From contig JBEKMW010000009.1 of NCBI GenBank assembly GCA_049523455.1, forward strand, positions 6,758-70,757: a DNA stretch of 64,000 nucleotides, written 5' to 3'. Positions 1,653 through 60,590 of this stretch are shown here, in pieces. A program made the translations under genes and the position numbers. Source of the stretch: Verrucomicrobiota bacterium (lineage in GTDB: Bacteria > Verrucomicrobiota > Verrucomicrobiia > Limisphaerales > UBA11358). The notes beneath the pieces were generated by a model. That model was not told the origin of the DNA. It saw nothing but the letters and a program-made list of their open reading frames with translations, and searched no databases. The first letter of the stretch is position 1. Every line of letters begins with the position of its first letter.

Positions 1653-1694
1653 ATCTTGCCTTTTGTGTTGTGGTTAACTTTGCGTGTGTCTTGT

Positions 1695-1776
1695 TGCCTA
1701 ACGTTCCAATATAGGTAATCCGAAGTTATTCACCGGCGGGGCGGTGGGCCGAAGGAAATCCCCCGCCGCGCCGACG
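1695..1776. repeat. About 82-bp repeat, copy A (an inverted copy lies at 16918-17000)
   Basis: TGCCTAACGTTCCAATATAGGTAATCCGAAGTTATTCACCGGCGGGGCGGTGGGCCGAAGGAAATCCCCCGCCGCGCCGACGAG is, with a few mismatches, the reverse complement of 16918-17000. Contains a GGCGGGG...CCCCGCC stem. Confidence 0.85.
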
Positions 1777-1840
1777 AGAAGGGGTCGGTCAATAGTAATA
1801 TAGTATTTTAGTATTGACGATCGGGAATTAATTTTGCAGG

Positions 1841-2785
1841 ATGACAACCATGGCGCGGAAGCTGCGAGTGGAGTATGGCGGGGCGATTTATCATGTGATC
1901 AACCGCGGGGACCGGCGCGAACCCATCTTCAAGGATGACGAGGACCGGCGCCGTTTTCTGGCGACCCTGGGCGAAGCCTGTGCCAAAACCGACTGGCAGG
2001 TTCATGCGTTCTGCTTGATGCCCAACCATTTTCATTTAGTGGTCGAGACGCCCCAAGCGAACCTGGCGGCGGGGATGAAATGGTTTCTGGGGACCTACAC
2101 CAGCCGATTCAACCGGCGGCACAAACTGTTTGGCCATTTGTTCAGTGGTCGTTACAAGGCATTGATTGTGGATGGCAGTGGCAGCGGTTATCTGAAGACC
2201 GTCTGTGATTATGTGCATTTGAACCCGGTGCGAGCCCGGTTGCTCAAGGCGGAACAATCGCTGGGGGAGTATCGCTGGAGCAGTTGGCCCGAATACCTAA
2301 ACCGTCCGGGGCGGCGGCCGGCATGGTTGCGCGTGGACCGGTTGCTGGGTGAATATCGCGTGCCACGGGACAGTGCGGCGGGTCGGCGGCATCTGGCCGA
2401 GGCGTTGGAACAGCGCCGTGGGGCGGAAGCTGGCGACGCGTTCAAAGCGATCCGGCGAGGCTGGTTTTTCGGCAGCCCGGAGTTGAAGCAGGAATTGCTG
2501 GCGGCAATGTCGGAGCGGACGGGCCGATGGCATTATGGGGAGGCGGTGCAGGAGTCGTCGGTGGCCAGGGCGGAGCGTATGGTCCGGCAAGAAATGGGCC
2601 GGCGGAAATGGGATGAAGCGACCTTGGCTGCGCGGCGCAAAGGCGATGCCCAGAAGGTGGCCATGGCGCGGCGATTGCGGCGCGAGACGACGGTGACAGT
2701 GGCTTGGATAGCGGAACGGCTACGGATGGGAACCCCGACCTACCTGGCGCATTTGCTGTACTGGAACCGACGCAATGAAAAATAG
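1841..2785 (+). CDS. REP-associated tyrosine transposase (RAYT, IS200/Y1-like) with a C-terminal DnaA-type HTH tail
   Basis: N-terminal YHVINRG...HAFCLMPNHFHLVVETP (HuH motif) ...GHLFSGRYKA (catalytic Tyr region) ...YVHLNPVRA. C-terminus RRLRRETTVTVAWIAERLRMGT. Confidence 0.85.
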   Translation: MTTMARKLRVEYGGAIYHVINRGDRREPIFKDDEDRRRFLATLGEACAKTDWQVHAFCLMPNHFHLVVETPQANLAAGMKWFLGTYTSRFNRRHKLFGHLFSGRYKALIVDGSGSGYLKTVCDYVHLNPVRARLLKAEQSLGEYRWSSWPEYLNRPGRRPAWLRVDRLLGEYRVPRDSAAGRRHLAEALEQRRGAEAGDAFKAIRRGWFFGSPELKQELLAAMSERTGRWHYGEAVQESSVARAERMVRQEMGRRKWDEATLAARRKGDAQKVAMARRLRRETTVTVAWIAERLRMGTPTYLAHLLYWNRRNEK

Positions 2786-11254: not shown

Positions 11255-11289
<35 letters not shown>

Positions 11290-13586: not shown

Positions 13587-13750
13587 GGAACCGACGGCCA
13601 CTGGCCCTTCCGCCTTCGCTCCTGCCATCGTTTCGCTTCGACGCGGCAAGGCGCTACGGCGGGACACGTGAGATTTGGGTTGAGCGATGAAGATTGGATG
13701 TCATAATTGCACTCGGAGCCTGGCCGCCGGTGGCCGCGGGTCGGCGTTGA
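13587..13750. repeat. Composite repeat, copy 1 (related to 16783-16910)
   Basis: Shared blocks: GGAACCGACGGCCACTG(G/C)CCCTTCCGCC and GAGATTTGGGTTGAGCGATGAA(G/A)ATTGGATGTCATAATTGCA(C/T)TCGGAGC.TGG.CGCCGGTGGCCGCGG. Confidence 0.85.
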
Positions 13751-14049: not shown

Positions 14050-14287
14050 CATGGTTTCCCGAATGGATATTACAGTATTATACGTCCAGGCGGGACGTAC
14101 CGGATGCCTATCGAGCGCTTTCGAGATGTATTGAAAAATGCCATCGCCTGCCGGCTTGCGCTGGATCAACCCGCGCACCAATCCGCCGCAGCGCTTCTTT
14201 CGCGTGAAATGTCCTTGCATGGGCAAACTGCACGGAAGTGCCACTATACGGATAACTTTAAAAAATATAAACCTGACAAGGAAAACC

Positions 14288-15634
14288 ATGAACATTAAAA
14301 ACGTGATTCACATCTGTCTGCTTGGTTGCACGATGCTGCAAGCGGACACCAGCGGAGCACAACCTGTGACGAAGGTTTCCGCTGGAGAATATTACACTCT
14401 ATTGCTCAAGGGCGATGGCAGCCTGTGGGCCGTGGGCGATAACTATTATGGCGAGTTGGGCGACGGCACTTACGGCTCTGCCCCTGACTATGGAACCAAC
14501 TACCCCGAGCAGATTGTGGCTACCAACGTCACGGCCATCGCCGCAGGAGAAGGCGACAGCAGCATGTTCCTCAAGAACGATGGTAGCTTGTGGGCAATGG
14601 GTTACAACGGTTATGGCGAGTTGGGCGACGGAACCGACAACACCACGGATAGTCCCGAATTGATTTTGGCCACCAACGTCACCGCTATTGCCTTGGGAGA
14701 AAATCACACCCTGTTGCTCAAGAGCGACGGCAGCCTGTGGGCCATGGGCGAGGACAATTATGGCCAGTTGGGCAACGGCGCTTATACGTTCCCCTACCCA
14801 GACCGGCCCCTTCAGATTTTGGCCAGCAACGTCACGGCCATCGCCGCCGGAATGTGGCACAGCCTGTTGCTCAAGAGCGACAGCAGCGTGTGGGCCATGG
14901 GTTTCAACGGTGACGGGCAGTTGGGCGATGGCACTTACAACAAAATCAACCACCCCGAGCTGATTGCCAGCAACGTCACCGCCATTGCCGCTGGAGGAAG
15001 CCACAGCCTGTTGCTCAAGAGCGACGGCAGTTTGTGGGGCATGGGTTACAACAATTATGGCCAGTTAGGCGACGGCACTTACAACACTGCCAACCACCCC
15101 GAACAAATAGTGCCTAGCGGGGTAACCGCCATTGCTGGGGGCGGCGAACACAGCCTGTTTCTCAAGAATGATGGCAGTTTATGGGCCATGGGCTGGAATG
15201 GATATGGTCAGTTGGGCGACGGCACTTACAATAATACCAACCGCCCCGAGCAGATTGCGGCCGGCGACGTCACTGCCATTGCCGCAGGATGGGACCACAG
15301 CTTGTTTCTGAAGAGCAACGGCAGTCTCTGGGCCATGGGCGACAACGGAAGTGGCGAACTGGGCGATGGCACTTACAATACTACCAACCGCCCCGAGCAG
15401 ATTCTGGCGGCTTTCAATCAAATCTCCGGCCAGCTTTTGGGCGGCACCAATATGCAATTCTCCTTTGTGGGCATCGCCGGGGCGAATTATGTGCTGGAGC
15501 GTTCCAGTAACCTGTCATCACCCGACTGGATTCCGCAAGCGACCAATCCCGCCAGTTCGTTCGGGGCACTGGTGTTCACCAACCCGCCGGACCTCACCAC
15601 GAACAATTTCTGGCGCATCCGTTCCGTGCCATGA
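14288..15634 (+). CDS. RCC1/BLIP-II beta-propeller repeat lipoprotein
   Basis: MNIKNVIHICLLGC lipobox, then about 8 repeats of the form HSLLLKSDGSLWAMGxNxYGQLGDGT. The ORF is open from 14138, but ATG 14288 gives the signal peptide. Confidence 0.9.
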   Translation: MNIKNVIHICLLGCTMLQADTSGAQPVTKVSAGEYYTLLLKGDGSLWAVGDNYYGELGDGTYGSAPDYGTNYPEQIVATNVTAIAAGEGDSSMFLKNDGSLWAMGYNGYGELGDGTDNTTDSPELILATNVTAIALGENHTLLLKSDGSLWAMGEDNYGQLGNGAYTFPYPDRPLQILASNVTAIAAGMWHSLLLKSDSSVWAMGFNGDGQLGDGTYNKINHPELIASNVTAIAAGGSHSLLLKSDGSLWGMGYNNYGQLGDGTYNTANHPEQIVPSGVTAIAGGGEHSLFLKNDGSLWAMGWNGYGQLGDGTYNNTNRPEQIAAGDVTAIAAGWDHSLFLKSNGSLWAMGDNGSGELGDGTYNTTNRPEQILAAFNQISGQLLGGTNMQFSFVGIAGANYVLERSSNLSSPDWIPQATNPASSFGALVFTNPPDLTTNNFWRIRSVP

Positions 15635-16819: not shown

Positions 16820-17000
16820 AAGCTATGGCGGGACTAGTGAGATTTGGGTTGAGCGATGAAAATTGGATGTCATAATTGCATTCGGAGCGTGGTCGCCGGT
16901 GGCCGCGGCTCAGCTCATCGTCGGCGCGGCGGGGGATTTCCTTCGGCCCACCGCCCCGCCGGTGAACAACTTCGGATAACCTATATTGGAACGTTGGGCA
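16783..17000. repeat. Composite repeat, copy 2 (16783-16910 relates to 13587-13750; 16918-17000 is the inverse of 1695-1776)
   Basis: Direct comparison of the three loci. See the finding on this repeat. Confidence 0.85.
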
Positions 17001-17046
17001 CCACCGGCTGCCGAGAATTGACATCCAGACAATCAGAACGATTGTC

Positions 17047-18341: not shown

Positions 18342-21299
18342 TTACCCCGTGCAGGTGCACACCGGATTACGGTCGCCATAGACGTTGTCCACGCGGCCCA
18401 CGATGGGCCAGAATTTGTATTCGCGCAGGCCCGGTACCGGATACGCCGCCTGCTCGCGCGGGTACGGCCGGTCCCAATGGTCCGCCGTCACCACGTCCGC
18501 CGTGTGCGGCGCGTTTTTTAGCACGTTGTTCTGCCCATCCGCCGCGCCGGATTCAACCGCCGTCATCTCGGCGTGGATGGCGATCATCGCGTCGCAAAAA
18601 CGGTCCAATTCGCATTTTGCTTCGCTCTCGGTCGGCTCCACCATCAGCGTGCCCGCCACCGGAAACGACAACGTGGGCGCGTGAAATCCGTAATCCATCA
18701 GCCGCTTGGCCACGTCCTCGGCGGTGACCCGCTTGAACCCGCGCAATTCCAAAATGCACTCATGCGCCACCAGCCCGCCGGGCCCGCGATAGAGCGTGGG
18801 AAAATATTTCTCCAACTGCTTGGCGATATAATTCGCGTTCAAGATCGCGAAGCGTGTGGCCTCCGTCAGTCCCTCCGCTCCCATGGCGGCGATGTACGCC
18901 CAGGAAATCGGCAGGATGCCTGCGCTGCCCCAAGGCGCGCCGGCAACCGCGCCGATGTGTTGCTTCGAATGCTTAGGGCCCAACCGCCCTGTGAACACCG
19001 GATGGCTCGGCAGGAACTCGACCAAGTGTTTCGCCACGCCAATCGGCCCCACGCCCGGCCCGCCGCCGCCATGCGGGATGCAAAACGTCTTGTGCAGGTT
19101 CAAATGGCATACGTCCGCGCCGATGCGCCCCGGTGAGGTCAAGCCCGCTTGCGCGTTCAAGTTCGCGCCATCCATATAGACCTGTCCGCCGTGCGCGTGG
19201 ATGATTTCGCAAATCTCCCGGATCGTTTCCTCAAAAACTCCGTGCGTGGATGGATACGTGACCATCAAGCACGCCAATTCGTCTTTGTGCGCCTCGGCTT
19301 TGCTCCGCAAATCCGCCACGTCAATATTGCCATCGCTATCGCACGCCACGACAACGACTCTTAACCCGGCCATTGCGGCGCTGGCGGGATTGGTGCCGTG
19401 GGCGGACGTCGGAATCAGGCACACCTTCCGCTGCGCCTGGCCGCGCGACTCGTGATAGGCGCGAATAACCAGCAGGCCGGTGTATTCACCCTGCGAACCG
19501 GCATTGGGCTGCAAGCAAATCCCGGCGAACCCGGTGATTTCCGCCAGCCAGTCCTCCAAGTTCTGAAACAGGATTTGGTACCCGCGCGCCTGTCGTAACG
19601 GTGCAAACGGGTGAATGCCGGCAAATTCCGGCCACGATATCGGCAGCATTTCAAACGCCGCATTGAGCTTCATCGTGCACGAGCCCAGCGGTATCATCGA
19701 AGCCGTAAGCGACAAATCGCGCGATTCCAGTCGCTTGAGATACCGCATCATCTCGGTCTCGCTGTGGTAGCGGTTGAAAACTTTGTGAGTGAGGATTGCC
19801 GATTGCCGGTCGCCGACTGCCGATTGCCGATTGCCAGCCAGTTCGGCCACGGAAAATTTAACGGGTTTATTGCCATTGAAGATTTGCCAGATTTCGGCCA
19901 CGTCTTTGGCGCCGGTCGTTTCGTCCAACGAAATACCGATGGTGTGGCCGTCAACCACACGGAAATTGACGTGGCGTGCCTCGGCAAGTTTCACAATTTC
20001 CGCCGCGCGCTTGTTGCCAAGCGAAACAACGAGCGTGTCAAAGTAGGACAGGCGTCCCGCCTGTCCCGCTCCTTTTGCGCTTGCCTTTAAAGATGGAGAC
20101 AGGCGCGACCCGTCCTTCGTGGCAGGGCTACTGCGGAGGGCGGACGCCTGTCCTACGGTGAAGCCAAGTTTCCCCAAACCCGCGGCGAGCGTGGCCGTCA
20201 ATCCGTGGATGCGTTCCGCAATTTTCTTCAGCCCTTCCGGCCCGTGATAGACGGCGTACATCGCGGCCATGCTCGCCAGCAACGCTTGCGCCGTGCAGAT
20301 GTTGCTCGTCGCCCTCTCACGGCGGATGTGCTGCTCGCGCGTGCCGAGCGCCAACCGCAGCGCCGGCTGGCCGCGTGAATCCCGCGACACGCCTACCAGA
20401 CGGCCCGGCATCTGCCGCTTGAATTCGTCGCGCGTGGCGAAGAACGCCGCGTGCGGCCCGCCGTACCCCAGCGGCACCCCAAACCGTTGCGCGCTGCCCA
20501 CCGCCACGTCGGCGCCGAATTCACCCGGCGGTTGGATGAGCGTGAGCGCCAGCAAATCCGTGGCCACCGTCACCATCGCTCCGGCCGCATGCGCCTTCTC
20601 CACCAGCGACCCGTAATCCTCAATCGCTCCAAACGTGTCCGGATACTGCACCAGCACGCCAAAAACTTTTTCGCTGAACGGGAAATCTTCGGGAGACCCG
20701 GTCACCACTTCGATTCCCAATGCCCTTGCCCGCGTGCGGACGACCTCGATGTTTTGCGGATGGCAGGTTTCGGAAACCAGGAACACGTTGCGTTCCTCTC
20801 CGCCTTTGAGCCGATGGCACATCATCATGGCTTCCGCGCAAGCCGTGGCTTCGTCGAGCAAAGAGGCATTGGCCACCTCCAGCGCCGTGAGATCGCACAC
20901 CATCGTCTGGAAATTCAAGAACGCCTCGAGCCGCCCTTGCGAAATCTCGGCCTGATACGGTGTGTATTGCGTGTACCAGCCCGGATTTTCCAGCAGGTTG
21001 CGCTGGATGACCGCCGGCGTGATGCAATTGTAGTAGCCCATGCCGATGAACGAGCGGCAGACCCGGTTCTGCGAAGCGATCTCTTTTAGCGCCGCGAGCA
21101 CCTCATGTTCGCTGCGTGCCGGCGGCAGATTCAATTTCTTGTCGAGCCGGATTTTCCGCGGCACGGCGGCGTCCACCAGTGCGTCGAGGCTCGGAAAGCC
21201 GAGCAACGCGAGCATTTCCTTCGCCTCCCGGGCATTCGGTCCCACGTGGCGTCGTACAAATTCGTCTGGGTGTGCAGTTGGATTTTGGGTCACAGCCAT
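18342..21299 (-). CDS. gcvP: Glycine dehydrogenase (aminomethyl-transferring), fused P-protein
   Basis: 985 aa. [42 protein letters not shown] (PLP-Lys), [16 protein letters not shown]. Confidence 0.97.
19794..19835. repeat. Six tandem GATTGCC-type heptamers (42 bp) inside gcvP
   Basis: gattgcc gattgcc ggtcgcc gactgcc gattgcc gattgcc. Encodes [14 protein letters not shown] on the minus strand. Confidence 0.9.
20043..20156. repeat. 114-bp REPIN-like element with perfect 15-bp terminal inverted repeats, in frame within gcvP
   Basis: GTAGGACAGGCGTCC (20043-20057) and GGACGCCTGTCCTAC (20142-20156). 38 codons. Confidence 0.9.
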
Positions 21300-21582: not shown

Positions 21583-22029
21583 GGCGCCTGATTCGTTAGC
21601 ACCCTGCCTGCCTGCGGTTCTGATGACCTAAAGGTCGTTTGGCGGCATTGTGGATTGTCCAGCGATTTCGAATGGAAGAATTGACGCCCCCTCTCCTCTC
21701 CCCCCTCTCCTATCGGGAATACACCTGCCGAAATCAGGGCAATAAAGGGCAATAGAGGGCGCTAAAGGCCACCACAGGACGCTCTCCATGAATTTGGGAA
21801 CATCGAACATCGAACGTCGAACATCGAATGAAAAGGAGCCCTCACCCCGGCCCTCTGCGCCCCATCCTCTCCAGGCGCTGCCTCCAAGGTTGCGCTCGCG
21901 GCTGGTTTTGGTTTATTCTCGCCCGAATGAAATGGCGCCTGACCAGCCGCAGGAATTACTTTCTCAAACATTCCCCTCGCGGCAGGCAAGCGGCGTCGCC
22001 TTGACCAGCTTGATTCGTCCAATTGAATT

Positions 22030-24123
22030 ATGAAGACCTACCAACCAGCGGATATCCGAAACTTCGCCATCGTCGGCCACGCCTCGTCGGGCAAAACCAT
22101 GCTCGCCGAGGCCATGCTCATGTGCGGCGGCGTCATCAACCGCATGGGCCGCATCGCCGATGGCTCCACGGTGTCCGATTATCATGTCGCGGAAAAGAAC
22201 CGCCAGATATCCGTCTCCGCTTCGCTCCTGCACGTGGACTGGACCGGGAAAAAGTTCAACATCATTGACTCGCCGGGCTACCTGGATTTCATCAGCGAAG
22301 GTCTGGGCGCGCTGCGGGTGAGCGATTTCGCGCTGGTGGTGGTCCATGCCCAGCACGGGCTTGGCGTGGGCACCGAGCGCGTGTGGAATTACGCCACGAA
22401 TTACGGCATCCCCAAATTCATCGCCGTCAATGCCGTGGACAAGGAGAACGTGGACTTCGAAGCCACCGTCAAGCAAATGCAGGAGCGGTTTGGGCGCCAC
22501 GTTTTTCCGCTGGCCGTGCCCATCAACGCCGGCCCGGGTTTCAACCGCGTGCTCGACATGCTGCGGAACGAAATCGTCACCTACGCCACCGACGGCTCGG
22601 GCAAATACCTAGAGGAGCCGGCCACCGGTGAATGGGAAGCCCGGGTCAAGGACCTCCACGGCCAGCTTATCGAGCACATCGCCGAGTCGGACGACGAACT
22701 GATGAACAAATTCTTCGAGCATGGCAGCCTGTCGGAGGAGGAATTCCGCGCCGGCATCCACGCGGCCGTGCAAAAGGAATCGTTCATTCCCCTGTTCGCG
22801 GTCTCGGCCGAAAATAATATTGGCGTGGCGCGCCTGATGGATTTCATCGCCAAATACGGCCCGTCACCCGTGGACCGCAAAAAGGTGCAGGCGCTGGACG
22901 CCAACGACAAGGAGATCGAAGTGGCCCTCGATAGCCATGACACCGTGGTTTACATATTCAAGACGATGGCCGAGGCGCACTTTGGCGAGCTGTCGTTCTT
23001 CCGTGTCTATTCAGGCTCCATCTCCACCGGCATGGATTTATTCAACAGCAACCGCAAAGCGAACGAACGCATCGGGCAGATCTACGTGCTGAATGGCCAA
23101 AACCGCGAGGCCGCCAACACCCTGGGCCCCGGCGACATCGGCGTGGTCGTAAAATTGAAGGTCACCCACACCGGCGACACGCTCTGCCACCCCAAACATC
23201 CCCTGGCGCTGGCAAAGGTTGCCTATCCCAAGCCCAATATCCACGCCGCGCTGGTCGCCCGGGTCAAGGGCGAAGAAGACAAGATAGCCTCCGGCCTGGC
23301 GGCCCTGCACGGCGAAGACCCCACATTCATATACGTGGTGGATGCGGAGTTACACCAGACGATCATCTCGGCCCAGGGCGAGTTGCATTTGGAAGTGGTG
23401 GCCGACCGCTTGCGGCGGCGCCACAACGTCCACGTGGAACTGGCCGAGCCGCGGGTGAAATACCGCGAGACGATCAAAGGCAAGGGCGATTCCAAGTACC
23501 GCCACAAGAAACAGACCGGCGGCGCCGGGCAATTTGCCGAGGTCTGGATGCGGATCGAGCCCAAACCGCGGGATAGCGGCGTGGAATTCACCAACTCGCT
23601 GGTGGGCCAAAACGTGGACCGGGTGTTTGTGCCGTCGGTGGAGAAAGGAGTGAACCAGGCGTGCATCGAGGGCATTCTGGCCGGCTGCCGGGTGACCGAT
23701 GTGAAGATTGACTTTTACGACGGCAAGATGCACCCGGTGGATTCCAAGGACATCGCGTTTCAGATCGCGGGCTATTTTGCGTTCAAGGAAGCGTTCCTGG
23801 CCGCCAGGCCGTGCCTGCTCGAACCGATTGAAACCGTCGAAATCCGCATTCCGGAGGACTGCATGGGCAAGGTCATGGGCGACCTCTCATCGCGGCGCGG
23901 AAAAATCATCGGGATGGACAGCGACGGCGTCTTTCAAGTGATCAAAGCCAGCGTGCCCGCCAAGGAGCTTTACCACTACTCCAGCACGCTGCGTTCACTG
24001 ACCGGCGGACGCGGCGTACATACCGAGGAATTCAGCCATTACGAGGAAATGCCGCGCGAGACCACGGAAAAGGTGATTGAAGAGGCGAAAAAACGAAAGG
24101 CGGCGGCGGCGGAAGCGCACTGA
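22030..24123 (+). CDS. Elongation factor G family GTPase (EF-G paralogue)
   Basis: 697 aa. G1 GHASSGKT, DSPGYLDF, NAVDK. Domains II-V are recognisable (for example GELHLEVV, GGAGQFA). The N-terminal G1 diverges from canonical AHIDAGKT. Confidence 0.9.
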   Translation: MKTYQPADIRNFAIVGHASSGKTMLAEAMLMCGGVINRMGRIADGSTVSDYHVAEKNRQISVSASLLHVDWTGKKFNIIDSPGYLDFISEGLGALRVSDFALVVVHAQHGLGVGTERVWNYATNYGIPKFIAVNAVDKENVDFEATVKQMQERFGRHVFPLAVPINAGPGFNRVLDMLRNEIVTYATDGSGKYLEEPATGEWEARVKDLHGQLIEHIAESDDELMNKFFEHGSLSEEEFRAGIHAAVQKESFIPLFAVSAENNIGVARLMDFIAKYGPSPVDRKKVQALDANDKEIEVALDSHDTVVYIFKTMAEAHFGELSFFRVYSGSISTGMDLFNSNRKANERIGQIYVLNGQNREAANTLGPGDIGVVVKLKVTHTGDTLCHPKHPLALAKVAYPKPNIHAALVARVKGEEDKIASGLAALHGEDPTFIYVVDAELHQTIISAQGELHLEVVADRLRRRHNVHVELAEPRVKYRETIKGKGDSKYRHKKQTGGAGQFAEVWMRIEPKPRDSGVEFTNSLVGQNVDRVFVPSVEKGVNQACIEGILAGCRVTDVKIDFYDGKMHPVDSKDIAFQIAGYFAFKEAFLAARPCLLEPIETVEIRIPEDCMGKVMGDLSSRRGKIIGMDSDGVFQVIKASVPAKELYHYSSTLRSLTGGRGVHTEEFSHYEEMPRETTEKVIEEAKKRKAAAAEAH

Positions 24124-24267
24124 GGGCGGACAAATCCGTTTGTTCGCCGACCATTGTGGTTTGCCCCTTCAAGGCAAAAAAGGTTTTCCGATTTTTCCGA
24201 GGGCGTTGCCCTCGGCTACGATGGTTCAGGCCTTTGGCCTGTGACCATTTTACCCACCATAAACGTC
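24124..24267. repeat. REP-like element (CCGAGGGC...GCCCTCGG hairpin followed by CTACGATGGTTCAGGCCTTTGGCC) inserted after the EF-G stop codon
   Basis: Same architecture as 38395-38515 (CCCAGGGCGG...GCCCTGGGCTATTATCGTTCGGGCTTTCAGCCC). Confidence 0.7.
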
Positions 24268-24862: not shown

Positions 24863-26365
24863 ATGCCGAGTGTTTACCTCAAGACTTTTGGTTGCCAGAT
24901 GAACGAGCGCGACAGCGAAGCCGTCGCCGCGCAGCTCGTGGCCAGAGGCTACACGCTCGCGCCGTCCGAAGCGGTGGCCGACGTGATTTTGCTCAACACG
25001 TGCAGCGTGCGCGACCTCGCGGAGCAGAAGGCGCTCGGCAAAATGACGGCGCTCATCGGCGATACCCGCCGCACGCGACCCAAGGTGGTGCTCGGCTTCC
25101 TGGGTTGCATGGCCCAAAGCCGCGGACAGGAACTCATTGACCGGTTGCCGGACGTGGATTTGGTCCTCGGCACGCAAAAGTTTCATCGCGCAGCGGATTA
25201 CCTGGACGAAATCCTGTCCGGCCGGCGTGAAAAAATTGTGGACGTGGCGGAAGAGGACGGCAGTGAAGCCACGATCCGCGAGCACTTGCTTTATGGCAAT
25301 GCCGCGGCCAATGGCAATGGTCATAGGCCGCCGCCGGTGACGGCGTTTGTCAGCATCATGCAGGGCTGCAACCAGTATTGCACTTTTTGCATCGTGCCTT
25401 ACACGCGCGGCAGGGAGCGCAGCCGCACCATTCCCGACCTCGTGGCCGAATGCCGCCAACTGGTCGCCCAGGGCGCGAAGGAGATCACGCTGCTTGGCCA
25501 GATTGTGACCAGTTATGGCAAACGCGGAGGTGTGGCGGCGGGCATCCTGCCTGCCTTAGAGCCGGGCTTCCAGCCCGGCGGGATGACCGTGGATAAGTCC
25601 GACGGTTCAACCATTTCAGAGAACGGTCCGGGCGGCAGGATGCCGCCCTCTACGGCAGGCAGGATGCCTGCCGCCACGAGCCCTTTTGTCCACCTGCTTG
25701 AAGCCGTCCACGAGATCGAAGGATTGGAACGGATCCGCTTCACCTCGCCGCACCCGAAAGGTTACGGCGACGATTTGATTGACGCTTACGCGCGGCTGCC
25801 GAAATTGGTCGAAAGCGCGCACCTGCCCGTTCAAAGCGGCAGCAATCGCGTGTTGAAATTGATGCACCGCGGCTATACGCGCGAACGTTACCTCGGAATC
25901 ATCGAGAAATTGCGGCGCGCCCGCCCCGGCATGGGCATCAGCACCGACCTGATTGTGGGCTTTCCCGGCGAGACCGAAGATGACTTTGAACAAACCCTTT
26001 CCCTGGCGCGCGAAGTGGAATTTGACCAGGCATTCATTTTCAAATACTCGCAACGCCGCGACACGCCCGCGGCCCAAATGCCGGACCAGGTTCCGCAACG
26101 CCTCCGGGAGGCGCGCAATCAGCGATTGTTGGAAGTCATCAACGAAATCGCGGGGCGCAGACATGCCGCGTTCGTGGGCCGGCAAACGCAAATTCTGGTG
26201 GAAGGCCCGAGCAAAAAGAACCCGGCGCGGATGACCGGCCGGACGCGCTGCAACAAGATAGTGGTCTTTGACGGCTCGGACCGCCATCGCGGCCAGCTCC
26301 TGGACGTGCGAATCATCCGCGCCGGTTCCTTTACGCTTTACGGCGAGCCGGATGTTCTGGAATGA
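24863..26365 (+). CDS. miaB: tRNA-2-methylthio-N6-dimethylallyladenosine synthase
   Basis: YLKTFGCQMNERDSE, radical-SAM CNQYCTFCIVPYTRG, LPVQSGSNRVLKLMHR, TRAM tail. The ORF is open from 24788 but ATG 24863 fits. Confidence 0.95.
   Translation: MPSVYLKTFGCQMNERDSEAVAAQLVARGYTLAPSEAVADVILLNTCSVRDLAEQKALGKMTALIGDTRRTRPKVVLGFLGCMAQSRGQELIDRLPDVDLVLGTQKFHRAADYLDEILSGRREKIVDVAEEDGSEATIREHLLYGNAAANGNGHRPPPVTAFVSIMQGCNQYCTFCIVPYTRGRERSRTIPDLVAECRQLVAQGAKEITLLGQIVTSYGKRGGVAAGILPALEPGFQPGGMTVDKSDGSTISENGPGGRMPPSTAGRMPAATSPFVHLLEAVHEIEGLERIRFTSPHPKGYGDDLIDAYARLPKLVESAHLPVQSGSNRVLKLMHRGYTRERYLGIIEKLRRARPGMGISTDLIVGFPGETEDDFEQTLSLAREVEFDQAFIFKYSQRRDTPAAQMPDQVPQRLREARNQRLLEVINEIAGRRHAAFVGRQTQILVEGPSKKNPARMTGRTRCNKIVVFDGSDRHRGQLLDVRIIRAGSFTLYGEPDVLE
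25534..25675. repeat. About 142-bp multi-hairpin repeat element inside miaB
   Basis: GGCGGCGGGCATCCTGCCTGCC (25534-25555) matches the reverse complement of GGCAGGCAGGATGCCTGCCGCC (25654-25675) at 21 of 22 positions. Internal hairpins GCCGGGCttccaGCCCGGC and GGCGGCAggaTGCCGCC. Confidence 0.85.
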
Positions 26366-36844: not shown

Positions 36845-37039
36845 TTAAAAATACTCGTGTTCCGAGCGTTTAATTTCAGACAGAAAATTATAGGAAAATT
36901 GTTGTTTTCAGACAATGCTAAAACTGCAGATTTTTTGGGTGAAAACACTATTAGTTGTGGCCTATTATCAGCAAACGCCAAAATATTGTAGGGGCGCGGA
37001 CTGGCGAAATTTCCACGATTTTATGTGGAAGTGAACGGG

Positions 37040-37190
37040 CACGAACCCCGAAAAGCGCCAGAGGGCTGGCGTATTCTACGATGCCTGTGTCGTGTCACAG
37101 AAATGCGTTTCCAACCCCAATCCCAACGGGATTGAATCTATCAGCCCAGGGTTGCGAGGAACGAGCTACCCTGGGTGAACGAAATGTGCC
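37040..37190. repeat. REP-like intergenic element (…CCCAACGGGATTGAATCTATCAGCCCAGGGTTGCGAGGAACGAGCTACCCTGGGTG…)
   Basis: Contains the stem CCCAGGGT...ACCCTGGG. From memory it is a widespread repeat in PVC genomes. Only one copy in this window. Confidence 0.4.
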
Positions 37191-37197
37191 GGCTGGG

Positions 37198-38301
37198 TCA
37201 ATGCGCCAGCGCGGTTTTCAGGGCGGACAGACAGCGCTCGTTTTCCTGCGGGGTGCCGATGGAGATGCGCACCCATTCGGGCAGTTGATAGCCGCCCATG
37301 GGTCGGACAATCACGCCCTGCTTTTGCATGGCGTCGAACACCTTCTGGCCCTGGCCGACGCGGACGAGGATGAAATTGGCGTACGAGGGAACGAATTCGA
37401 GCTGCAAGGCGCGAAAGGCGCGCTCGAAAAATTCCAGTCCGGCGAAGTTGTTTTGCCGCGTCCGGTTGACGTGCGCCGAGTCGTCCAGCGCCGCGAGCGC
37501 CGCGGTTTGCGCCAGGAGATTGATGTTGAACGGCTGCCGGATCTTCTCCAGCACGGCGATGAAGTCGGGATGGGCGATGCCGTAGCCGATGCGCAACCCG
37601 GCCAGGCCGTAAATCTTGGAGAAGGTGCGCATCAAAATCAAATTGCGCCGGGTTCCCTGCCGGACCAGCGGCGACAAATCGAGGGGGTCCTGAAGGTACT
37701 CGAGGTAGGCCTCGTCCATGGCCAGGAGCACATGGTCGGGGACGTCGTTGACAAAGCGGATGATTTCGTCGCGCGGGGCGAGCGTGCCGGTGGGGTTGTT
37801 GGGGTTGGCGACGAAGACGATGCGGGTGCGCGGGGTAACGGCGCGGAGCATGGCCGCCAGATCGTGCCCGTAATTTTTGGCCGGCACGACCACGAGGTTG
37901 GCGCCGAACAATTTGGTGACGATGGGATAGACGGCAAAACAATATTGCGACACCACGACTTCGGCGCCGGCGGCGGCTCCCAGGCCGTCCAGCAGCGCGT
38001 GCCCGATGAACTCGATGACTTCATTCGAGCCGTTGCCGAGGATGAGGTGGGCCGGCTCCACGCCGAGTTTGGCGGCGAGTTTTTGTTTCAGATAAAACGC
38101 ATTGCCATCCGGATAGAGGTTCACGCCGGCCAGCGCCTTTTGCATGGCGGCGACGGCGAGTGGAGACGGTCCAAACGGGTTTTCGTTGGAGGCCACCTTG
38201 ATGATGTCCTCGGGGGACAGGCCGAGCTCGCGCGCGACCTCCTCAATGGGGCGGCCCGGTTGATAGACGGGCAGATCGTTCAGGAATGCATTGGTCTTCA
38301 T
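37198..38301 (-). CDS. hisC: Histidinol-phosphate aminotransferase
   Basis: SNENPFGPSP, PNNPTG, TFSKIYGLAGLRIGY (PLP-Lys). The ORF is open to 38340. Confidence 0.93.
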   Translation of the reverse strand: MKTNAFLNDLPVYQPGRPIEEVARELGLSPEDIIKVASNENPFGPSPLAVAAMQKALAGVNLYPDGNAFYLKQKLAAKLGVEPAHLILGNGSNEVIEFIGHALLDGLGAAAGAEVVVSQYCFAVYPIVTKLFGANLVVVPAKNYGHDLAAMLRAVTPRTRIVFVANPNNPTGTLAPRDEIIRFVNDVPDHVLLAMDEAYLEYLQDPLDLSPLVRQGTRRNLILMRTFSKIYGLAGLRIGYGIAHPDFIAVLEKIRQPFNINLLAQTAALAALDDSAHVNRTRQNNFAGLEFFERAFRALQLEFVPSYANFILVRVGQGQKVFDAMQKQGVIVRPMGGYQLPEWVRISIGTPQENERCLSALKTALAH

Positions 38302-38394
38302 TCGCACCAATCTGGAATCAAATCCCGTCCGGGGAAACAAAAAAATAGCCGCCGGGGATTTTGTTCGGTAGGAACTTTTGGCGATGGAGCATTT

Positions 38395-43945: not shown

Positions 43946-46427
43946 ACCCAAAGTTACACCGGAACTGGTTGCCAAACACAACCTGACGCCCGAGGAACAC
44001 CGGAAAATTCTCGAAGTGCTGGGCCGCGAGCCGAGCTATACCGAATTGGGCATCTTCTCGGTGATGTGGAGCGAACATTGCTGTTACAAGAGCACCCGCC
44101 CGCTGCTCAAAACCTTTCCGACCAAGTCCAAGAAAATCCTCGTCGGCGCCGGGGAAGAGAACGCCGGCATTATTGACATTGGCGACGGCCTGGCCATTGC
44201 GTTCAAAGTGGAGTCGCACAACCATCCGAGCGCGGTCGAGCCGTTCCAGGGGGCGGCCACGGGCGTCGGCGGCATCGTGCGGGATATTTTTACGATGGGA
44301 GCCAGGCCCATTTGCTCGGTAAATTCCTTGCGATTTGGACCGATCACCGGGAATTCGGAACGCGGAGCGCGGAGTGCGGAATCAAAAAGTGGGAAGGAAG
44401 CTGCGTTGAAGAACAACCGCCGCCTCTTTGCGGGCGTCGTCGCTGGCATTGCGCATTATGGTAATTGCTTTGGCATTCCCACCATCGCCGGCGAGGTTTA
44501 TTTCGACCCATCCTACGAGGGCAATCCGCTGGTCAACGCTTTTTGCCTGGGCGTCCTCCGCCACGAGCAAATCGCGCGCGGCGCCGCCAAAGGCATCGGC
44601 AATCCGGTCTTTTACGTGGGCCCGGCCACGGGCCGCGACGGTCTGGCCGGCGCCGCATTCGCCTCGCAGGATTTGACCGAGGAATCGGCCGAGCAGCAGC
44701 GCGGGGCGGTGCAGGTGGGCGATCCCTTCATGGAAAAACTCGTGTGCGAAGCCTGCCTGGAATTGCTGGCCACCGGCGCGGTGGCGGGCATTCAGGACAT
44801 GGGCGCGGCGGGCCTGACCTGTTCCACGTGCGAGACGGCGGCGCGCGCCGGCACGGGCATCGAAATCGAATTGGACAAGGTGCCGCAACGCGCGCCGAAC
44901 ATGAGCAGCTACGAAATCATGCTCAGCGAATCGCAGGAGCGGATGCTCATCATCGTTAACCGCGGCCGGGAAGCGGAGGTCAAACGCATTTTCGACAAAT
45001 GGGATTTGCCTTGGGCGGAAATCGGTTTCGTCACCGACACCGGCCGCATGGTGGTCAAACACCACGGCCAGGTGGTGGCGGATATTCCGGCCAGGAAAAT
45101 CGCCGATGAGTCGCCGGTTTGCCAGCGGGAGGCGGCCGAGCCGGAGTACCTGAAGGACGTGCGGGCCTTTCGGCTGGATGGAATTGCCGATTGCCAATCA
45201 CCGGTTGACGATTTGAAGAAGTTGCTGGCGTGGCCGACCATCGCGTCGAAAAACTGGGTGTACCGCCAATACGACCACATGGTGCGGGATGGTTCGGTGG
45301 TTTGTCCCGGCAGCGACGCGGCCGTGTTGCGCATCAAGGCGGACAGTTTGCCGGATCTGGGGAGCGCGCCCGCCCCGGGCGCCGCGGTTGACGCCCCGTC
45401 AACCGCAAAAGCCGGCGACATGTCAGCCGCCAGCGACGCACTTTCAGTTCCCGAGAAATTTATCGCCCTGACCTCGGATGGCAACGGCGCTTACGTCTAT
45501 CTCGATCCCTACGAAGGGGCGAAGGTCGTCATGGCTGAAGCGTGCCGCAACCTGGCGTGCTCCGGCGCCGTGCCATTGGGGACGACGGACAATCTCAACA
45601 TGCCCAGCCCCCTCAAGCCGGAACTGTTCTGGCAAATCAAGGAATCGGTGCGCGGCTTGGCCGACGCGTGCCGGGCCTTCAACGCGCCCGTCACCGGCGG
45701 CAATTGCTCGCTCTACAACCAGAGCCCCAACGGCCCGATTGACCCGACGCCCACCGTCGTGGTGGTGGGGTTGGTCGAAAAACCGGAACACGTGACGACG
45801 CAGTGGTTCAAGGACGAAGGCGACGCGATCATTTTGCTGGGTGAAGCGGTGGATGCGAGCGATCCGCTGTCCGGCCTGGGCGGTTCCGCTTATCTGCAAG
45901 TGATCCATGGCCAAAAGACCGGCAGACCGCCGCGTTGTGATCTCGAGCAGGCCAAAACCCTGCACACGACGCTGCTGGGCTTGATCCATTCCGGACTGGT
46001 AAAAAGCGCGCATGATTGCAGTGAAGGCGGTTTGGCGGTTTGCCTGGCCGAAAGCTGCATTTCACAACTCGCCGCCCGCGAAACGCCCCGCCTCATCGGG
46101 GCCACGGTGGATTTGAGCCTCGTAGGACAGGCTTCCAGCCTGTCTCAAACGAAAAAAGAAGATGGAGACAGGCAGGATGCCCGTCCTCCGGCGCGCTTGG
46201 ATGGCCTGCTCTTTGGCGAAGCCCAGTCGCGCGTGGTTATCACCTGTCACCCGCTGAATGCGGTGAAAGTGGTCGAACGCGCGAAGTTGATGGGTGTGCC
46301 TGCGGCACAAATCGGCAAAGTGGGCGGTGACCAGTTGACCATAAAAACCGCCGCCGGCGAAATCAGCGCGCCAGTGGCCGAATTGCACGACGTCTGGTGG
46401 AACGCCATCGCGCGGGCGATGGCCTGA
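43926..46427 (+). CDS. purL: Phosphoribosylformylglycinamidine synthase subunit PurL
   Basis: 833 aa. [52 protein letters not shown]. The start may be ATG 43938. Confidence 0.96.
44356..44383. repeat. Four CGGANNG heptamers inside purL
   Basis: cggaacg cggagcg cggagtg cggaatc, within a segment of about 19 aa ([19 protein letters not shown]) that is absent from B. subtilis PurL as I recall it. Confidence 0.8.
45339..45455. repeat. 117-bp (39-codon) insertion in purL carrying one arm of the 12269-12412 element
   Basis: GGGGAGCGCGCCCGCCCCGGGCG (45359-45381) against GGGGAGCACGCCCGCCCCGGGCG (12269-12291). Confidence 0.8.
46122..46190. repeat. In-frame copy, inside purL, of the same element family as gcvP 20043-20156
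   Basis: GTAGGACAGGCTTCCAGCCTGTCT...AAGATGGAGACAGGCAGGATGCCCGTCCTCCG against GTAGGACAGGCGTCCCGCCTGTCC...AAGATGGAGACAGGCGCGACCCGTCCTTCG. Confidence 0.85.
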
Positions 46428-60565: not shown

Positions 60566-60590
60566 GTAGGACAGGCGTCGCGCCTGTCTC
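60566..60590. repeat. Intergenic half-copy of the GTAGGACAGGC...GCCTGTC element family
   Basis: GTAGGACAGGCGTCGCGCCTGTCTC forms the hairpin GACAGGCG/CGCCTGTC. Confidence 0.8.

What the first reader, a model, noticed from the sequence alone, without database searches (positions are those of the whole stretch)
20043..20156. 114-bp palindrome-ended repeat element sits in frame inside the essential gcvP gene
- Inverted ends: bases 20043-20057 (GTAGGACAGGCGTCC) and 20142-20156 (GGACGCCTGTCCTAC) are perfect reverse complements.
- In frame: the span is 114 bp, exactly 38 codons. It is read on the minus strand as [38 protein letters not shown], between ...GLGKLGFT and FDTLVV.
- Absent elsewhere: from memory, E. 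coli GcvP reads ...[20 protein letters not shown] here, with no such segment.
- Other copies: the same DNA family occurs in purL (46122-46190) and intergenically (60566-60590).
- Interpretation: this is the behaviour described for Rickettsia palindromic elements (mobile palindromes tolerated as extra peptide loops). I am not aware of it being described for this kind of genome.
Basis: partly seen in the sequence, partly recalled or inferred. Interest (0 to 1): 0.8.

Follow-up and report, generated by a model that had tools for sequence, protein, structure and literature searches.

The report
Translated REP palindrome inside gcvP
A 114-bp hairpin-forming repeat of the bacterial "REP" kind sits in frame inside the glycine-cleavage gene gcvP of an uncultured Verrucomicrobium and adds a 38-residue loop.

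Summary
Bases 20043-20156 have perfect 15-nt inverted ends, span exactly 38 codons, and are read without a stop inside an otherwise full-length gcvP gene (18342-21299, minus strand).

- **What it is:** a GTAG-tagged REP doublet (REPIN-like). Each half is GTAG, a 9-bp stem GGACAGGCN, and a TCY/RGA triloop. A further 36-nt degenerate REP is nested in the loop of one half.
- **Other copies in the window:** one lies in frame in purL and a single REP lies just after a stop codon.
- **Distribution:** the same REP occurs in at least 120 loci from about 9 or more phyla.
- **Transposase link:** this REP flanks REP-associated tyrosine transposase (RAYT) genes in a cyanobacterium and in a Verrucomicrobia MAG. 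Relatives of that RAYT are flanked by hairpins of the same architecture.
- **Position in the protein:** where solved P-proteins have 4 residues, this GcvP has 36.
- **Variability of the site:** among 120 verrucomicrobial GcvPs the loop is empty or holds a single REP, doublets of three REP families, heptamer arrays, or an RHH domain. Proteins 94-96% identical elsewhere can carry different occupants.
- **Prior description:** the Rickettsia-like reading is right as behaviour. However, Di Nocera et al. 2013 already reported in-frame GTAG REP dimers, most numerous in the verrucomicrobium Opitutus terrae.

Verdict: a new member of a known kind. The rapid turnover at one loop is the fresh element.

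The parts
18342..21299 (-). Host gene gcvP (glycine dehydrogenase, aminomethyl-transferring), 985 aa, intact to the C terminus
   Evidence: TIGR00461 1457 bits, match split at the insert. Aligns end to end with Synechocystis P-protein 4LGL except residues 383-418.
20043..20156 (-). Whole 114-bp element: a REP doublet with a nested third REP, translated as residues 382-419
20142..20156 (-). Left REP, first part: GTAG tag, 5' stem GGACAGGCG and loop TCC (read on the minus strand)
   Evidence: In relatives (L002) this REP is uninterrupted: GTAGGACAGGCG TTG CGCCTGTCT.
20106..20141 (-). Nested 36-nt piece in the loop of the left REP: GCCCTCCGCAGTAGCCCTGCCACGAAGGACGGGTCG. It contains its own GTAG and an imperfect 7-bp hairpin, and encodes [12 protein letters not shown].
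   Evidence: Present only in the window and its 98%-identical relatives. No other copy in the window or in the fetched loci.
20098..20105 (-). Left REP, 3' stem CGCCTGTC
20066..20097 (-). Spacer between the two REPs. It starts with TCCATCT, as in other verrucomicrobial doublets.
20043..20065 (-). Right REP in inverted orientation: GACAGGCG GGA CGCCTGTC CTAC. On the plus strand this is GTAGGACAGGCG TCC CGCCTGTC, a perfect 9-bp stem with a 3-nt loop.
46122..46190 (+). Second copy of the family: a 69-bp doublet in frame in purL, encoding [23 protein letters not shown]
   Evidence: It lies in PurL residues 712-759, where Thermus PurL 3VIU has 14 residues.
60566..60590 (+). Third copy: a single extragenic REP, GTAGGACAGGCG TCG CGCCTGTC TCT, 8 nt after the stop of ORF 59014-60558

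Best explanation
The segment is a GTAG-tagged REP doublet (a REPIN-like miniature mobile element), not an original part of GcvP. Each half is the tetranucleotide GTAG, a 9-10-bp stem (GGACAGGCN), and a TCY triloop (RGA on the other strand). The two halves face each other across an A/T-rich spacer.

Proposed history and mechanism:
1. A doublet of about 78 nt entered, or replaced, a short loop of GcvP between a helix and the strand FFDT. It survived because it landed in one of its two stop-free frames, with a length divisible by three, at a place where extra residues do no harm.
2. In the window's lineage a further 36-nt degenerate REP then landed in the loop of the left hairpin, giving 114 nt and 38 aa.
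3. The element is copied and moved as single-stranded DNA by a REP-associated tyrosine transposase (a RAYT, a Y1/HUH enzyme of the IS200/IS605 type) that recognises the tag plus hairpin on one strand.
4. Doublets can collapse to single REPs by slippage between their directly repeated stems.
5. The same loop is re-occupied repeatedly in related lineages.

Shown here: the anatomy, the frame, the family membership, the variable occupancy in orthologues, the conservation of the hairpin by covariation, and the physical association of this REP with RAYT genes in other genomes.

Inferred: that a RAYT mobilises it in this organism, that the peptide is translated and exposed on the surface, that it is neutral, and that doublets collapse by slippage.
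For: **Anatomy and frame**
- Perfect 15-nt inverted ends, 38 codons, and 2 of 6 frames open.

**Family**
- Hits are often inverted pairs 10-110 nt apart.

**The hairpin is conserved as a structure**
- The loop-closing pair is Watson-Crick in 159 of 163 copies, using all four pair types (GC 82, AT 37, TA 27, CG 13), with no G·T.
- The triloop is TCN in 133 of 163 copies when GTAG is at the 5' end, so the element is strand-asymmetric.

**RAYT link**
- In Cylindrospermum NIES-4074 (L014) a 176-aa ORF passes NCBIfam's equivalog cut-off for REP-associated tyrosine transposase (94.5 against 80 bits). It is flanked on both sides by this very REP, with the GTAG ends facing the gene.
- In a Verrucomicrobia MAG (L051) a homologue is likewise flanked by this REP. 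It is 37% identical to the L014 protein and scores 64.6 bits.
- Among the 35 metagenomic relatives of that protein (of 80 fetched) that have full flanks, 17 have GT[AG]G-tagged hairpins with 8-9-bp stems and TCC/TCT loops within 300 nt. Only 2 of 35 do in control windows.

**Insertion, not ancestral sequence**
- Residues 383-418 stand where 4LGL has 4 residues.
- Related GcvPs show an empty site, single REPs, doublets of three families (stems GGACAGGC, CTGCCGRCA, CGCAGCCG), heptamer arrays, or an RHH domain at the same codon.
- These states are interspersed on the tree. Pairs 94-96% identical outside the site differ in occupant.

**Tolerated in frame elsewhere**
- The same REP lies inside Pfam domains of PurM, an ABC ATPase, GlnRS/GluRS, a class-III aminotransferase, DnaE, Mfd and a methyltransferase in other genomes.
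- In the window it lies in PurL.

**Stable inheritance**
- Four independent assemblies of the species-level cluster keep the open 38-aa insert.

**Literature**
- Intragenic GTAG REP dimers encoding 20-30 aa are described, most numerous in Opitutus terrae (PMC3733652).
Against: - **No cognate RAYT shown in this organism.** Only a 107-kb contig is known. The Y1 transposase-like ORF in the window (1841-2785) is only distantly related to the REP-flanked RAYTs (E about 1e-3), scores below the RAYT cut-off (55.9 against 80 bits), and is not flanked by this REP.
- **Copy number unknown.** Only three family copies are visible in 64 kb, so genome-wide copy number is not established.
- **No clean junction evidence.** There is no matching empty-site/filled-site pair at nucleotide level and no target duplication. 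Compared with empty alleles, four native codons are missing. No conserved target motif lies 5' of GTAG.
- **Translation and exposure untested.** The AlphaFold model was too poor to use (mean pLDDT 49.7).
- **Origin of the nested piece unproven.** The 36-nt piece has no other copy, so its identity as a REP rests on its GTAG and an imperfect hairpin.
Confidence: 0.77

Rival explanations
1. The element is retained because the host uses it, rather than as a neutral passenger. Possible uses are a regulatory structure in the mRNA (pausing ribosomes between GcvP sub-domains, or an RNase or stability determinant), a DNA site such as the gyrase- or IHF-binding BIMEs of E. coli, or a useful surface loop. 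Its origin would still be a REP; the claim is that selection keeps it.
For: - The fold is very stable (-68.4 kcal/mol, z = -5.6).
- The insert is fixed in four assemblies of the species-level cluster.
- An occupied state is more common than the empty state among 121 GcvPs: 99 occupied against 22 empty.
- Hairpin pairing is maintained by covariation.
Against: - The occupants of the loop are unrelated in sequence: three REP families, heptamer arrays and an RHH domain. About a fifth of relatives have none.
- The peptide and spacer are not conserved.
- The absence of G·T pairs at the covarying position argues for constraint on DNA rather than RNA.
- The same REP sits in many unrelated proteins and in intergenic DNA.
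Confidence: 0.1
2. [quoted passage not shown]
For: - The terminal inverted repeats are perfect over 15 nt and the unit is about 80-114 bp, a typical MITE size.
- DDE transposase genes exist in related contigs, for example a DDE_3 gene in L002.
Against: - No target-site duplication flanks the element.
- Each end is itself a complete hairpin with a GTAG tag and also occurs alone as a single unit, for example 60566-60590 and many of the 116 singles found.
- The strand-asymmetric triloop and the flanking of RAYT genes by this exact repeat point to a Y1/HUH enzyme.
Confidence: 0.06
3. The palindrome arose on the spot, by template switching or slippage during replication or repair of a variable loop. 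Its similarity to other copies would then reflect convergent sequence bias rather than movement.
For: - The native loop is short and variable.
- Heptamer arrays, which do grow by slippage, occupy the same loop in some relatives (L129).
- The proposed collapse of doublets to singles also needs slippage.
Against: - Identity over about 20 nt with copies in purL, in intergenic DNA and in at least 120 loci of many phyla cannot be convergence.
- The shared inner motifs of verrucomicrobial doublets (TCTCCATCT ... AGAGACAGGC) point the same way.
Confidence: 0.03
4. It is an assembly or binning artefact: a chimeric join inside gcvP.
For: The source is a metagenome contig.
Against: - The same insert, with two nucleotide differences, occurs in a contig from another metagenome (L003), and the same 38-aa insert occurs in two further assemblies.
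- The gene stays open and full length.
Confidence: 0.01

Closest known systems
Intragenic GTAG-tagged REPs of Opitutus terrae (families GTAG-17 to GTAG-20; Di Nocera, De Gregorio & Rocco, BMC Genomics 2013, PMC3733652)
   Same: - Same phylum.
- GTAG (or GTGG) tag, short G+C-rich stem and 2-3-nt loop.
- Mostly dimers that encode 20-30 aa in frame inside housekeeping genes, including PurL.
- Peptides begin with V (from GTA) and end with Y (from TAC), for example VGPALAAGREQRARLPAAGERPPY.
   Different: - The stem sequence differs: GGACAGGC here. The paper's figures are not held, so identity with one of its 24 families could not be excluded, but its listed O. terrae peptides differ.
- The host is an uncultured Limisphaerales-like lineage.
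- This copy is a doublet with a third REP nested in a hairpin loop.
- The rapid exchange of occupants at one codon of one gene is mentioned in that paper only in passing, for Xanthomonas recB.
REPIN-RAYT systems (Nunvar et al. 2010, PMC2817692; Bertels & Rainey 2011, PMC3116915; Ton-Hoang/Messing 2012, PMC3479197)
   Same: - Two inverted REPs separated by a spacer form a larger hairpin.
- A conserved 5' GTAG is present.
- A single-copy Y1/HUH transposase gene is flanked by the same REPs, seen here in L014 and L051.
   Different: - Classical REPINs are extragenic, by name and by observation.
- They were characterised in Proteobacteria.
- They are held to be vertically inherited within a lineage, whereas this REP sequence is shared by about 9 or more phyla.
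- No RAYT has been tied to the repeat in the window's own genome.
Rickettsia palindromic elements (RPE; Ogata et al. 2000/2002; Claverie & Ogata 2003), as cited in PMC3733652
   Same: Palindromic repeats inserted in frame in genes for functional proteins and tolerated as extra peptide segments.
   Different: - Different superfamily: Di Nocera et al. equate the CGTC-tagged intragenic Rickettsia conorii repeats with RPE-4 and RPE-6, and found no dedicated transposase for CGTC REPs.
- RPE-1 elements are longer.
- The host there is an obligate intracellular alphaproteobacterium with a reduced genome.
- From my own knowledge, RPE insertions are mostly old and vertically inherited, whereas this GcvP loop changes occupant between proteins about 95% identical.
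E. coli REP/BIME elements
   Same: A GTAG-tagged imperfect palindrome, arranged in alternating orientation, with a RAYT (TnpA-REP/YafM) that recognises it.
   Different: - BIMEs are extragenic, usually at the 3' ends of genes.
- They have documented host uses (gyrase and IHF binding, mRNA stabilisation). None of these was tested here.

Membership tests
GTAG-tagged REP superfamily / REPIN | Conserved GTAG (or a close variant) at the 5' end of each unit | tested here: met
   Both outer ends are GTAG/CTAC. The same holds in the purL and intergenic copies.
GTAG-tagged REP superfamily / REPIN | A short palindrome next to the tag (stem 5-13 bp and loop 2-20 nt in the published families) | tested here: met
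   The right unit has a perfect 9-bp stem and a 3-nt loop. The left unit has the same stem with a 39-nt loop because of the nested piece. Pairing is kept by covariation in 159 of 163 family copies.
GTAG-tagged REP superfamily / REPIN | Two units in inverted orientation separated by a short spacer (a dimer, or REPIN) | tested here: met
   The units are 20043-20065 and 20098-20156, with a 32-nt spacer. The same architecture is seen in L002 and in 24 exact doublets among the fetched loci.
GTAG-tagged REP superfamily / REPIN | Many dispersed copies in the same genome | tested here: inconclusive
   There are three copies in the 64-kb window. The rest of the genome is not available; the contig is 107 kb. 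Several MAGs show multiple hits per genome, for example Caldilinea DYPX01, Acidobacteriota CAVRWB01 and Verrucomicrobia CAINDV01.
GTAG-tagged REP superfamily / REPIN | A cognate RAYT gene flanked by the same REP | tested here: inconclusive
   - Met in other genomes: L014 (94.5 bits, cut-off 80) and L051 (64.6 bits), both flanked by this REP.
- Relatives of that RAYT are enriched for tagged hairpins: 17 of 35 loci against 2 of 35 controls.
- Not shown for the window's organism. Its Y1_Tnp ORF 1841-2785 is a different subfamily and lacks these flanks.
GTAG-tagged REP superfamily / REPIN | Extragenic location | tested here: not met
   This copy and the purL copy are inside coding sequence. Intragenic members are nevertheless documented for the superfamily (PMC3733652), so this is not disqualifying.
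Rickettsia palindromic elements (RPE) | Sequence membership in one of the Rickettsia RPE families (the intragenic R. conorii repeats equated with RPE-4/-6 are CGTC-tagged according to PMC3733652) | tested here: not met
   The tag here is GTAG, not CGTC, and the paper assigns the Rickettsia repeats to the CGTC superfamily. No direct alignment with RPE sequences was made.
Rickettsia palindromic elements (RPE) | Palindromic repeat inserted in frame in an ORF that still encodes a full-length protein | tested here: met
Rickettsia palindromic elements (RPE) | The insert lies at the protein surface, away from catalytic parts | tested here: inconclusive
   - It replaces 4 residues between a helix and a strand of 4LGL.
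- The loop accepts 7 to about 70 residues in relatives.
- The model was too poor (pLDDT 49.7) and gives no coordinates.
TIR-type MITE | Target-site duplication flanking terminal inverted repeats | tested here: not met
   The flanks are ...TTCACC | element | TTTGAC..., with no duplication.
Rfam RNA families | A match to a curated structured-RNA model | tested here: not met
   No match at gathering score anywhere in the window.

The most novel reading that the evidence does not exclude
The GcvP loop is a re-used landing site rather than merely a tolerant one.
- REP doublets of at least three stem families share one architecture (GTRG tag, 8-9-bp stem, TCY triloop) and plausibly one RAYT clade.
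- They are exchanged at exactly the same codon on the timescale of about 5% protein divergence.
- REP-RAYT systems would then act as a continuing generator of loop diversity in essential enzymes of free-living Verrucomicrobiota.

In addition, one REP sequence (stem GGACAGGC) is shared by about 9 or more phyla and flanks related RAYTs in a cyanobacterium and a Verrucomicrobium. This would mean inter-phylum spread of a REP-RAYT pair, against the prevailing view of strictly vertical inheritance.
Probability: 0.25. Interest if true: 0.6.

Novelty: new member of a known kind. Interest (0 to 1): 0.38.

Why it matters
- **Annotation.** REP-type palindromes are routinely translated inside core enzymes of abundant, uncultured soil and peat Verrucomicrobiota. 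In this window alone GcvP, PurL and MiaB carry such inserts. Annotation, orthology, protein-length statistics and structure prediction for these organisms should therefore expect repeat-derived loops.
- **A natural experiment.** The GcvP loop has about nine occupancy states among proteins otherwise 93-96% identical. It shows how fast miniature elements enter, collapse and are replaced within a coding sequence, and which protein sites tolerate them.
- **Limits.** It does not open a new category. The phenomenon was catalogued in 2013, and nothing here shows a function for the insert.

Tried and rejected
- **Structure prediction.** The GcvP model built from 57 homologues came out with mean pLDDT 49.7 and pTM 0.29, too poor to judge exposure, so no fold search was run.
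- **Rfam.** The scan of the window found nothing.
- **Nested 36-nt piece.** I searched for further copies in the window (up to 3 mismatches) and in all loci. There are none, so it cannot be shown to be a repeat in its own right.
- **Target motif.** I looked at the 8 nt 5' of GTAG in 161 copies and found no conserved motif.
- **Presence/absence polymorphism.** All full-length members of the 90% cluster carry the insert.
- **The window's Y1 transposase.** I tested whether ORF 1841-2785 is the cognate RAYT. It belongs to a different subfamily, has no REP flanks and scores below the RAYT cut-off.
- **Literature string search.** Searches for GTAGGACAGGC and its parts returned only unrelated primer-type hits.
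- **Metagenomic RAYT relatives.** Only 2 of 80 loci had the GGACAGGC core nearby. The link is at the level of REP architecture, not this exact stem.
- **Rejected readings.** Intron, intein or other removal was rejected because the segment is in frame, has no stop and has no matching RNA family. An assembly artefact was rejected because of the four assemblies.
- **Deliberately not run.** A database-wide peptide search for REP-encoded peptides was skipped as costly. The loci already gave eight protein families.
Full report
**1. The observation**

The sequence is as described. Bases 20043-20057 (GTAGGACAGGCGTCC) and 20142-20156 are perfect reverse complements. With up to three mismatches the 15-mer occurs six times in the window, against 1.33 expected from shuffles.

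The 114 bp lie inside a 985-codon ORF on the minus strand (18342-21299). They are read as [38 protein letters not shown], residues 382-419. The ORF is GcvP: TIGR00461 scores 1457 bits, with the match broken in two at the insert. Only two of the six frames of the unit are free of stops, and the gene uses one of them. As a single strand the region folds at -68.4 kcal/mol, z = -5.6.

The window is part of a 107-kb contig of JGI metagenome 3300043536. The closest GcvPs that carry a name come mostly from Verrucomicrobiota/Limisphaerales MAGs.

**2. Position in the protein**

Against the solved Synechocystis P-protein (4LGL) the alignment runs query 8-382 to chain 27-400, then query 419-985 to chain 405-976. 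Thirty-six residues therefore stand where the solved protein has four, between the helix ending ...LKRLNYSL and the strand FFDTLRV. Human and another solved P-protein break at the same point.

An AlphaFold model built from 57 homologues was too poor to use (mean pLDDT 49.7). It placed residues 386-417 below 50, between better-predicted flanks.

**3. Anatomy**

Read on the coding strand, the unit has five parts:
- GTAG-GACAGGCG-TCC (20156-20142), the tag, 5' stem and loop of the left REP.
- A 36-nt piece (20141-20106).
- CGCCTGTC (20105-20098), the 3' stem of the left REP.
- A 32-nt spacer beginning TCCATCT (20097-20066).
- GACAGGCG-GGA-CGCCTGTC-CTAC (20065-20043), the right REP.

Each end is thus a complete tagged hairpin: a GTAG tag, a 9-bp stem and a 3-nt loop. 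The two hairpins are inverted relative to each other.

A GcvP 79% identical (L002) has the uninterrupted form at the same codon: GTAGGACAGGCG TTG CGCCTGTCT - 30-nt spacer - AGACAGGCG CGA CGCCTGTCCTCC, 78 nt and 26 aa. The extra 36 nt, which contain their own GTAG and an imperfect hairpin, are found only in the window and its 98%-identical relatives. They have no other copy in the window or the fetched loci.

**4. The repeat family**

In the window the family recurs twice:
- 46122-46190, 69 bp in frame in PurL ([23 protein letters not shown]). This lies in a stretch of 48 residues where Thermus PurL has 14.
- 60566-60590, a single REP 8 nt after a stop codon.

By their record titles these are:

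| Group | Loci |
|---|---|
| Verrucomicrobiota | about 36 |
| Acidobacteriota | 22 |
| Planctomycetota | 19 |
| Cyanobacteria | 10 |
| Chloroflexota | 10 |
| "Deltaproteobacteria"/Desulfobacterota | 5 |
| Nitrospirota | 4 |
| Others | remainder |

These include the isolate genome of Cylindrospermum NIES-4074 and a complete Phormidium chromosome. About 17 hits would be expected by chance for 18 fixed bases in 596 Gb on both strands (my estimate). Many hits are inverted pairs.

Across 163 copies the pair that closes the loop is Watson-Crick in 159, using GC, AT, TA and CG, and never G·T. The triloop is TCN in 133 when GTAG is at the 5' end. The hairpin is therefore conserved as a structure, asymmetrically with respect to strand. 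The lack of wobble pairs fits a constraint on DNA better than on RNA. The copies are not independent, so these counts are descriptive.

**5. Link to a transposase**

- In Cylindrospermum (L014) a 176-aa ORF passes NCBIfam's equivalog threshold for REP-associated tyrosine transposase (94.5 against 80 bits; Pfam Y1_Tnp). It is flanked on both sides by this very REP, with the GTAG ends facing the gene.
- In a Verrucomicrobia MAG (L051) a homologue is flanked by doublets of the same REP. It is 37% identical to the L014 protein, scores 64.6 bits, and has HUH and Tyr motifs.
- Eighty metagenomic relatives of that protein were fetched. Among the 35 with full flanks, 17 have GT[AG]G-tagged hairpins with 8-9-bp stems and TCC/TCT loops within 300 nt, against 2 of 35 in control windows of the same size further away. 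The stems differ between loci; only 2 of 80 have the GGACAGGC core. What is shared is the architecture.
- The window itself has a Y1 transposase-like ORF at 1841-2785 (Pfam 56.9 bits). It is only distantly related to these RAYTs, scores below the RAYT cut-off, and is not flanked by the repeat.

**6. The site in relatives**

In an alignment of 120 GcvPs 73-98% identical to the query, the stretch between ...KLGxxV and FDT takes the following states:

| State at the site | Number |
|---|---|
| Short native loop of 7-8 residues | 22 |
| Single family-A REP | 9 |
| Family-A doublet | 53 |
| Doublet with stem CTGCCGRCA and a GTG tag | 20 |
| Doublet with stem CGCAGCCG | 7 |
| Heptanucleotide arrays | 6 |
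| About 60-residue insert containing a ribbon-helix-helix domain | 2 |

The RHH insert scores 24.5 bits for RHH_1 against a cut-off of 20.5.

The DNA confirms these states in L004, L005, L002, L006, L128, L129 and L127. All three REP families start at the same Val codon. On a neighbour-joining tree built with the site masked, the states are interspersed.

Proteins that are very similar outside the site can differ in occupant:

| Pair of states | Identity outside the site |
|---|---|
| Family A doublet vs family C doublet | 95.8% |
| Family A doublet vs family B doublet | 95.1% |
| Family A doublet vs single REP | 95.0% |
| Family A doublet vs heptamer array | 94.7% |
| Family A doublet vs empty | 93.7% |

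The single-REP alleles have the loop of the right-hand unit (GGA). That is what a deletion between the directly repeated stems of the two palindromes would leave; this is my inference.

Other loops of GcvP, near residues 488-497, 772-781 and 854, also carry repeat-like peptides in some relatives. Within the species-level cluster of the window, all four assemblies keep the 38-residue insert.

**7. In-frame copies in other proteins**

Of 140 elements in the 120 loci, 41 are spanned by an ORF with at least 60 codons on each side. For those checked, the element lies inside a Pfam domain or between two matched domains of the same protein: PurM, an ABC ATPase, GlnRS/GluRS, a class-III aminotransferase, DnaE, Mfd and a DNA methyltransferase.

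**8. Literature**

Di Nocera, De Gregorio and Rocco (BMC Genomics 2013, PMC3733652) define GTAG- and CGTC-tagged REP superfamilies. Their main points relevant here:
- GTAG REPs are found in Proteobacteria, Cyanobacteria, Chloroflexi and the PVC group, and are linked to RAYTs.
- REPs entirely inside ORFs are reported. More than half are dimers or groups encoding 20-30 aa.
- They equate the intragenic Rickettsia repeats with RPE-4 and RPE-6, in the CGTC superfamily.
- They note different REPs at about the same site of recB in two Xanthomonas species.

No paper in the library holds the string GTAGGACAGGC in a relevant context.

**9. Explanation and rivals**

The best explanation is a RAYT-type REP doublet that entered a permissive loop and survived because of its frame and length. 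A further REP later nested in it. It is carried as a passenger loop.

- Shown: the anatomy, the family, the variable occupancy, and the association with RAYTs elsewhere.
- Inferred: mobilisation in this organism, translation, surface exposure and neutrality.
- A host function for the hairpin or the loop cannot be excluded. It is disfavoured by the unrelated occupants of the site and by the empty alleles.
- A DDE-type MITE is disfavoured by the absence of target duplication, the free-standing single units and the RAYT association.
- Local origin and assembly artefact are contradicted by the dispersed copies and the independent assemblies.

**10. Verdict**

The finding is real and correctly read as the Rickettsia-like phenomenon. 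It belongs, however, to the GTAG REP/REPIN kind, for which in-frame copies in a Verrucomicrobium were already published.

What is new:
- This particular family and host.
- The nested structure.
- The breadth of the family across phyla.
- The fast turnover of occupants at one codon of an essential gene.

I rate it a new member of a known kind, interest 0.38.

Noticed in passing
L051 1465-2257 (Verrucomicrobia MAG Bin_73_16, VFJO01000280.1): A whole REP-flanked RAYT-like gene sits inside valS and is read through without a stop. The order is:
- ValRS (664 bits over aa 36-458) ...VWYKKD
- REP doublet
- about 200-aa RAYT-like segment with HUH and Tyr motifs
- REP cluster that includes a direct copy of the first doublet
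- ValRS continuing as TFEIKCQIESPGEGWTQDSDVLDTWFSS.

No obvious start codon for the RAYT was seen. The locus ends at the contig end.
   Followed up: partly
L127 (P0066) and P0030, the same GcvP loop as the finding: Two GcvPs carry a 60-70-residue insert at this codon that contains a ribbon-helix-helix (CopG-type) domain. RHH_1 scores 24.5 bits (cut-off 20.5) in one and 19.9 in the other. No REP ends are visible in the DNA.
   Followed up: partly
window 25520-25675 (in miaB, ORF 24863-26365 +): MiaB has 52 residues (220-271...GILPALEPGFQPGG...GPGGRMPPSTAGRMPAA) where Bacteroides uniformis MiaB 7MJV has 7. The DNA holds three perfect 8-9-bp hairpins with TCC/GGA triloops at 25561, 25630 (followed by CTAC) and 25653. 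Its outer arms are 44 nt long and 84% complementary.
   Followed up: partly
window 44349-44405 and 45348-45464 (in purL): PurL has two further inserts relative to Thermus PurL 3VIU. Residues 142-160 overlap a CGGAACG heptamer array at 44356-44381. Residues 475-513 contain a perfect 10-bp hairpin at 45384-45406.
   Followed up: partly
window 19794-19835 (in gcvP), 45183-45213 (in purL); intergenic 553-578, 802-834, 11255-11289, 21798-21828: - Heptanucleotide tandem arrays are frequent: GATTGCC x6 is read as [13 protein letters not shown] in GcvP, ATTGGCT arrays lie at 553-578 and 802-834, and GAACATC arrays lie at 11255-11289 and 21798-21828.
- In GcvP the array does not lengthen the protein relative to 4LGL.
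- In some relatives heptamer arrays occupy the REP loop itself (L129 AGTCCRC x4; P0099 and P0104 SEIRNPK).
   Followed up: partly
window 1692-1777, 1841-2785, 13653-13745, 16822-17003: - A 314-aa Y1 (IS200-like) transposase homologue occupies 1841-2785. Its best NCBIfam match is REP-associated tyrosine transposase (55.9 bits, below the cut-off of 80).
- It lies 64 nt downstream of one arm of an 86-nt inverted repeat that is 95% complementary. The other arm is 15 kb away at 16918-17003.
- That second arm is next to a 93-nt direct repeat (13653-13745 / 16822-16914, 90% identical).
- This may be a long-TIR-associated tyrosine transposase arrangement, or the ends of a 15-kb element.
   Followed up: partly
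window 24197-24219 and 38584-38612: Two further tagged hairpins lie in typical extragenic REP positions.
- CCGAGGGCG TTG CCCTCGG CTAC lies about 75 nt after the EF-G-like ORF 22030-24123.
- GTAGCGCAGCCGTCC... lies between the convergent ORFs 36955-38430 and 38622-39710. It has the same stem as the 'family C' doublet found in the GcvP loop of L128.
   Followed up: partly
L014 3935-3958 (Cylindrospermum NIES-4074): The RAYT gene that is flanked by the REP also contains a REP-like hairpin in frame: GAACAGGCGAGACGCCTGTTCTAC, read as NRRDACST. It lies in a stretch that is gapped in the alignment with the L051 homologue.
   Followed up: no
GcvP alignment, query residues about 488-497, 772-781, 854: Other loops of GcvP in relatives carry repeat-like peptides. 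Examples are ISTGLQPGVKTNDDKPAVSTAS...NTGLKPGANESGI, VGRVTPCAPS...GAQGTARPT, VHASACSGGGDNLKVELQR and IVAGGEQGSAGVSPAAPNKNESDEQAGRLRYI. GcvP lengths range from 944 to 1045 aa.
   Followed up: no
window 14376-15408 (in ORF 14138-15634 +): A tandem array of about 147-nt coding repeats, with roughly 6-7 copies 64-78% identical, encodes a repeat protein. Its family was not identified.
   Followed up: no
L049, L098, L019 (record titles): Contigs labelled Bifidobacteriaceae and Akkermansia muciniphila MAGs carry verrucomicrobial-type REP doublets of this family. The Bifidobacteriaceae labels in particular look like binning or labelling errors.
   Followed up: no
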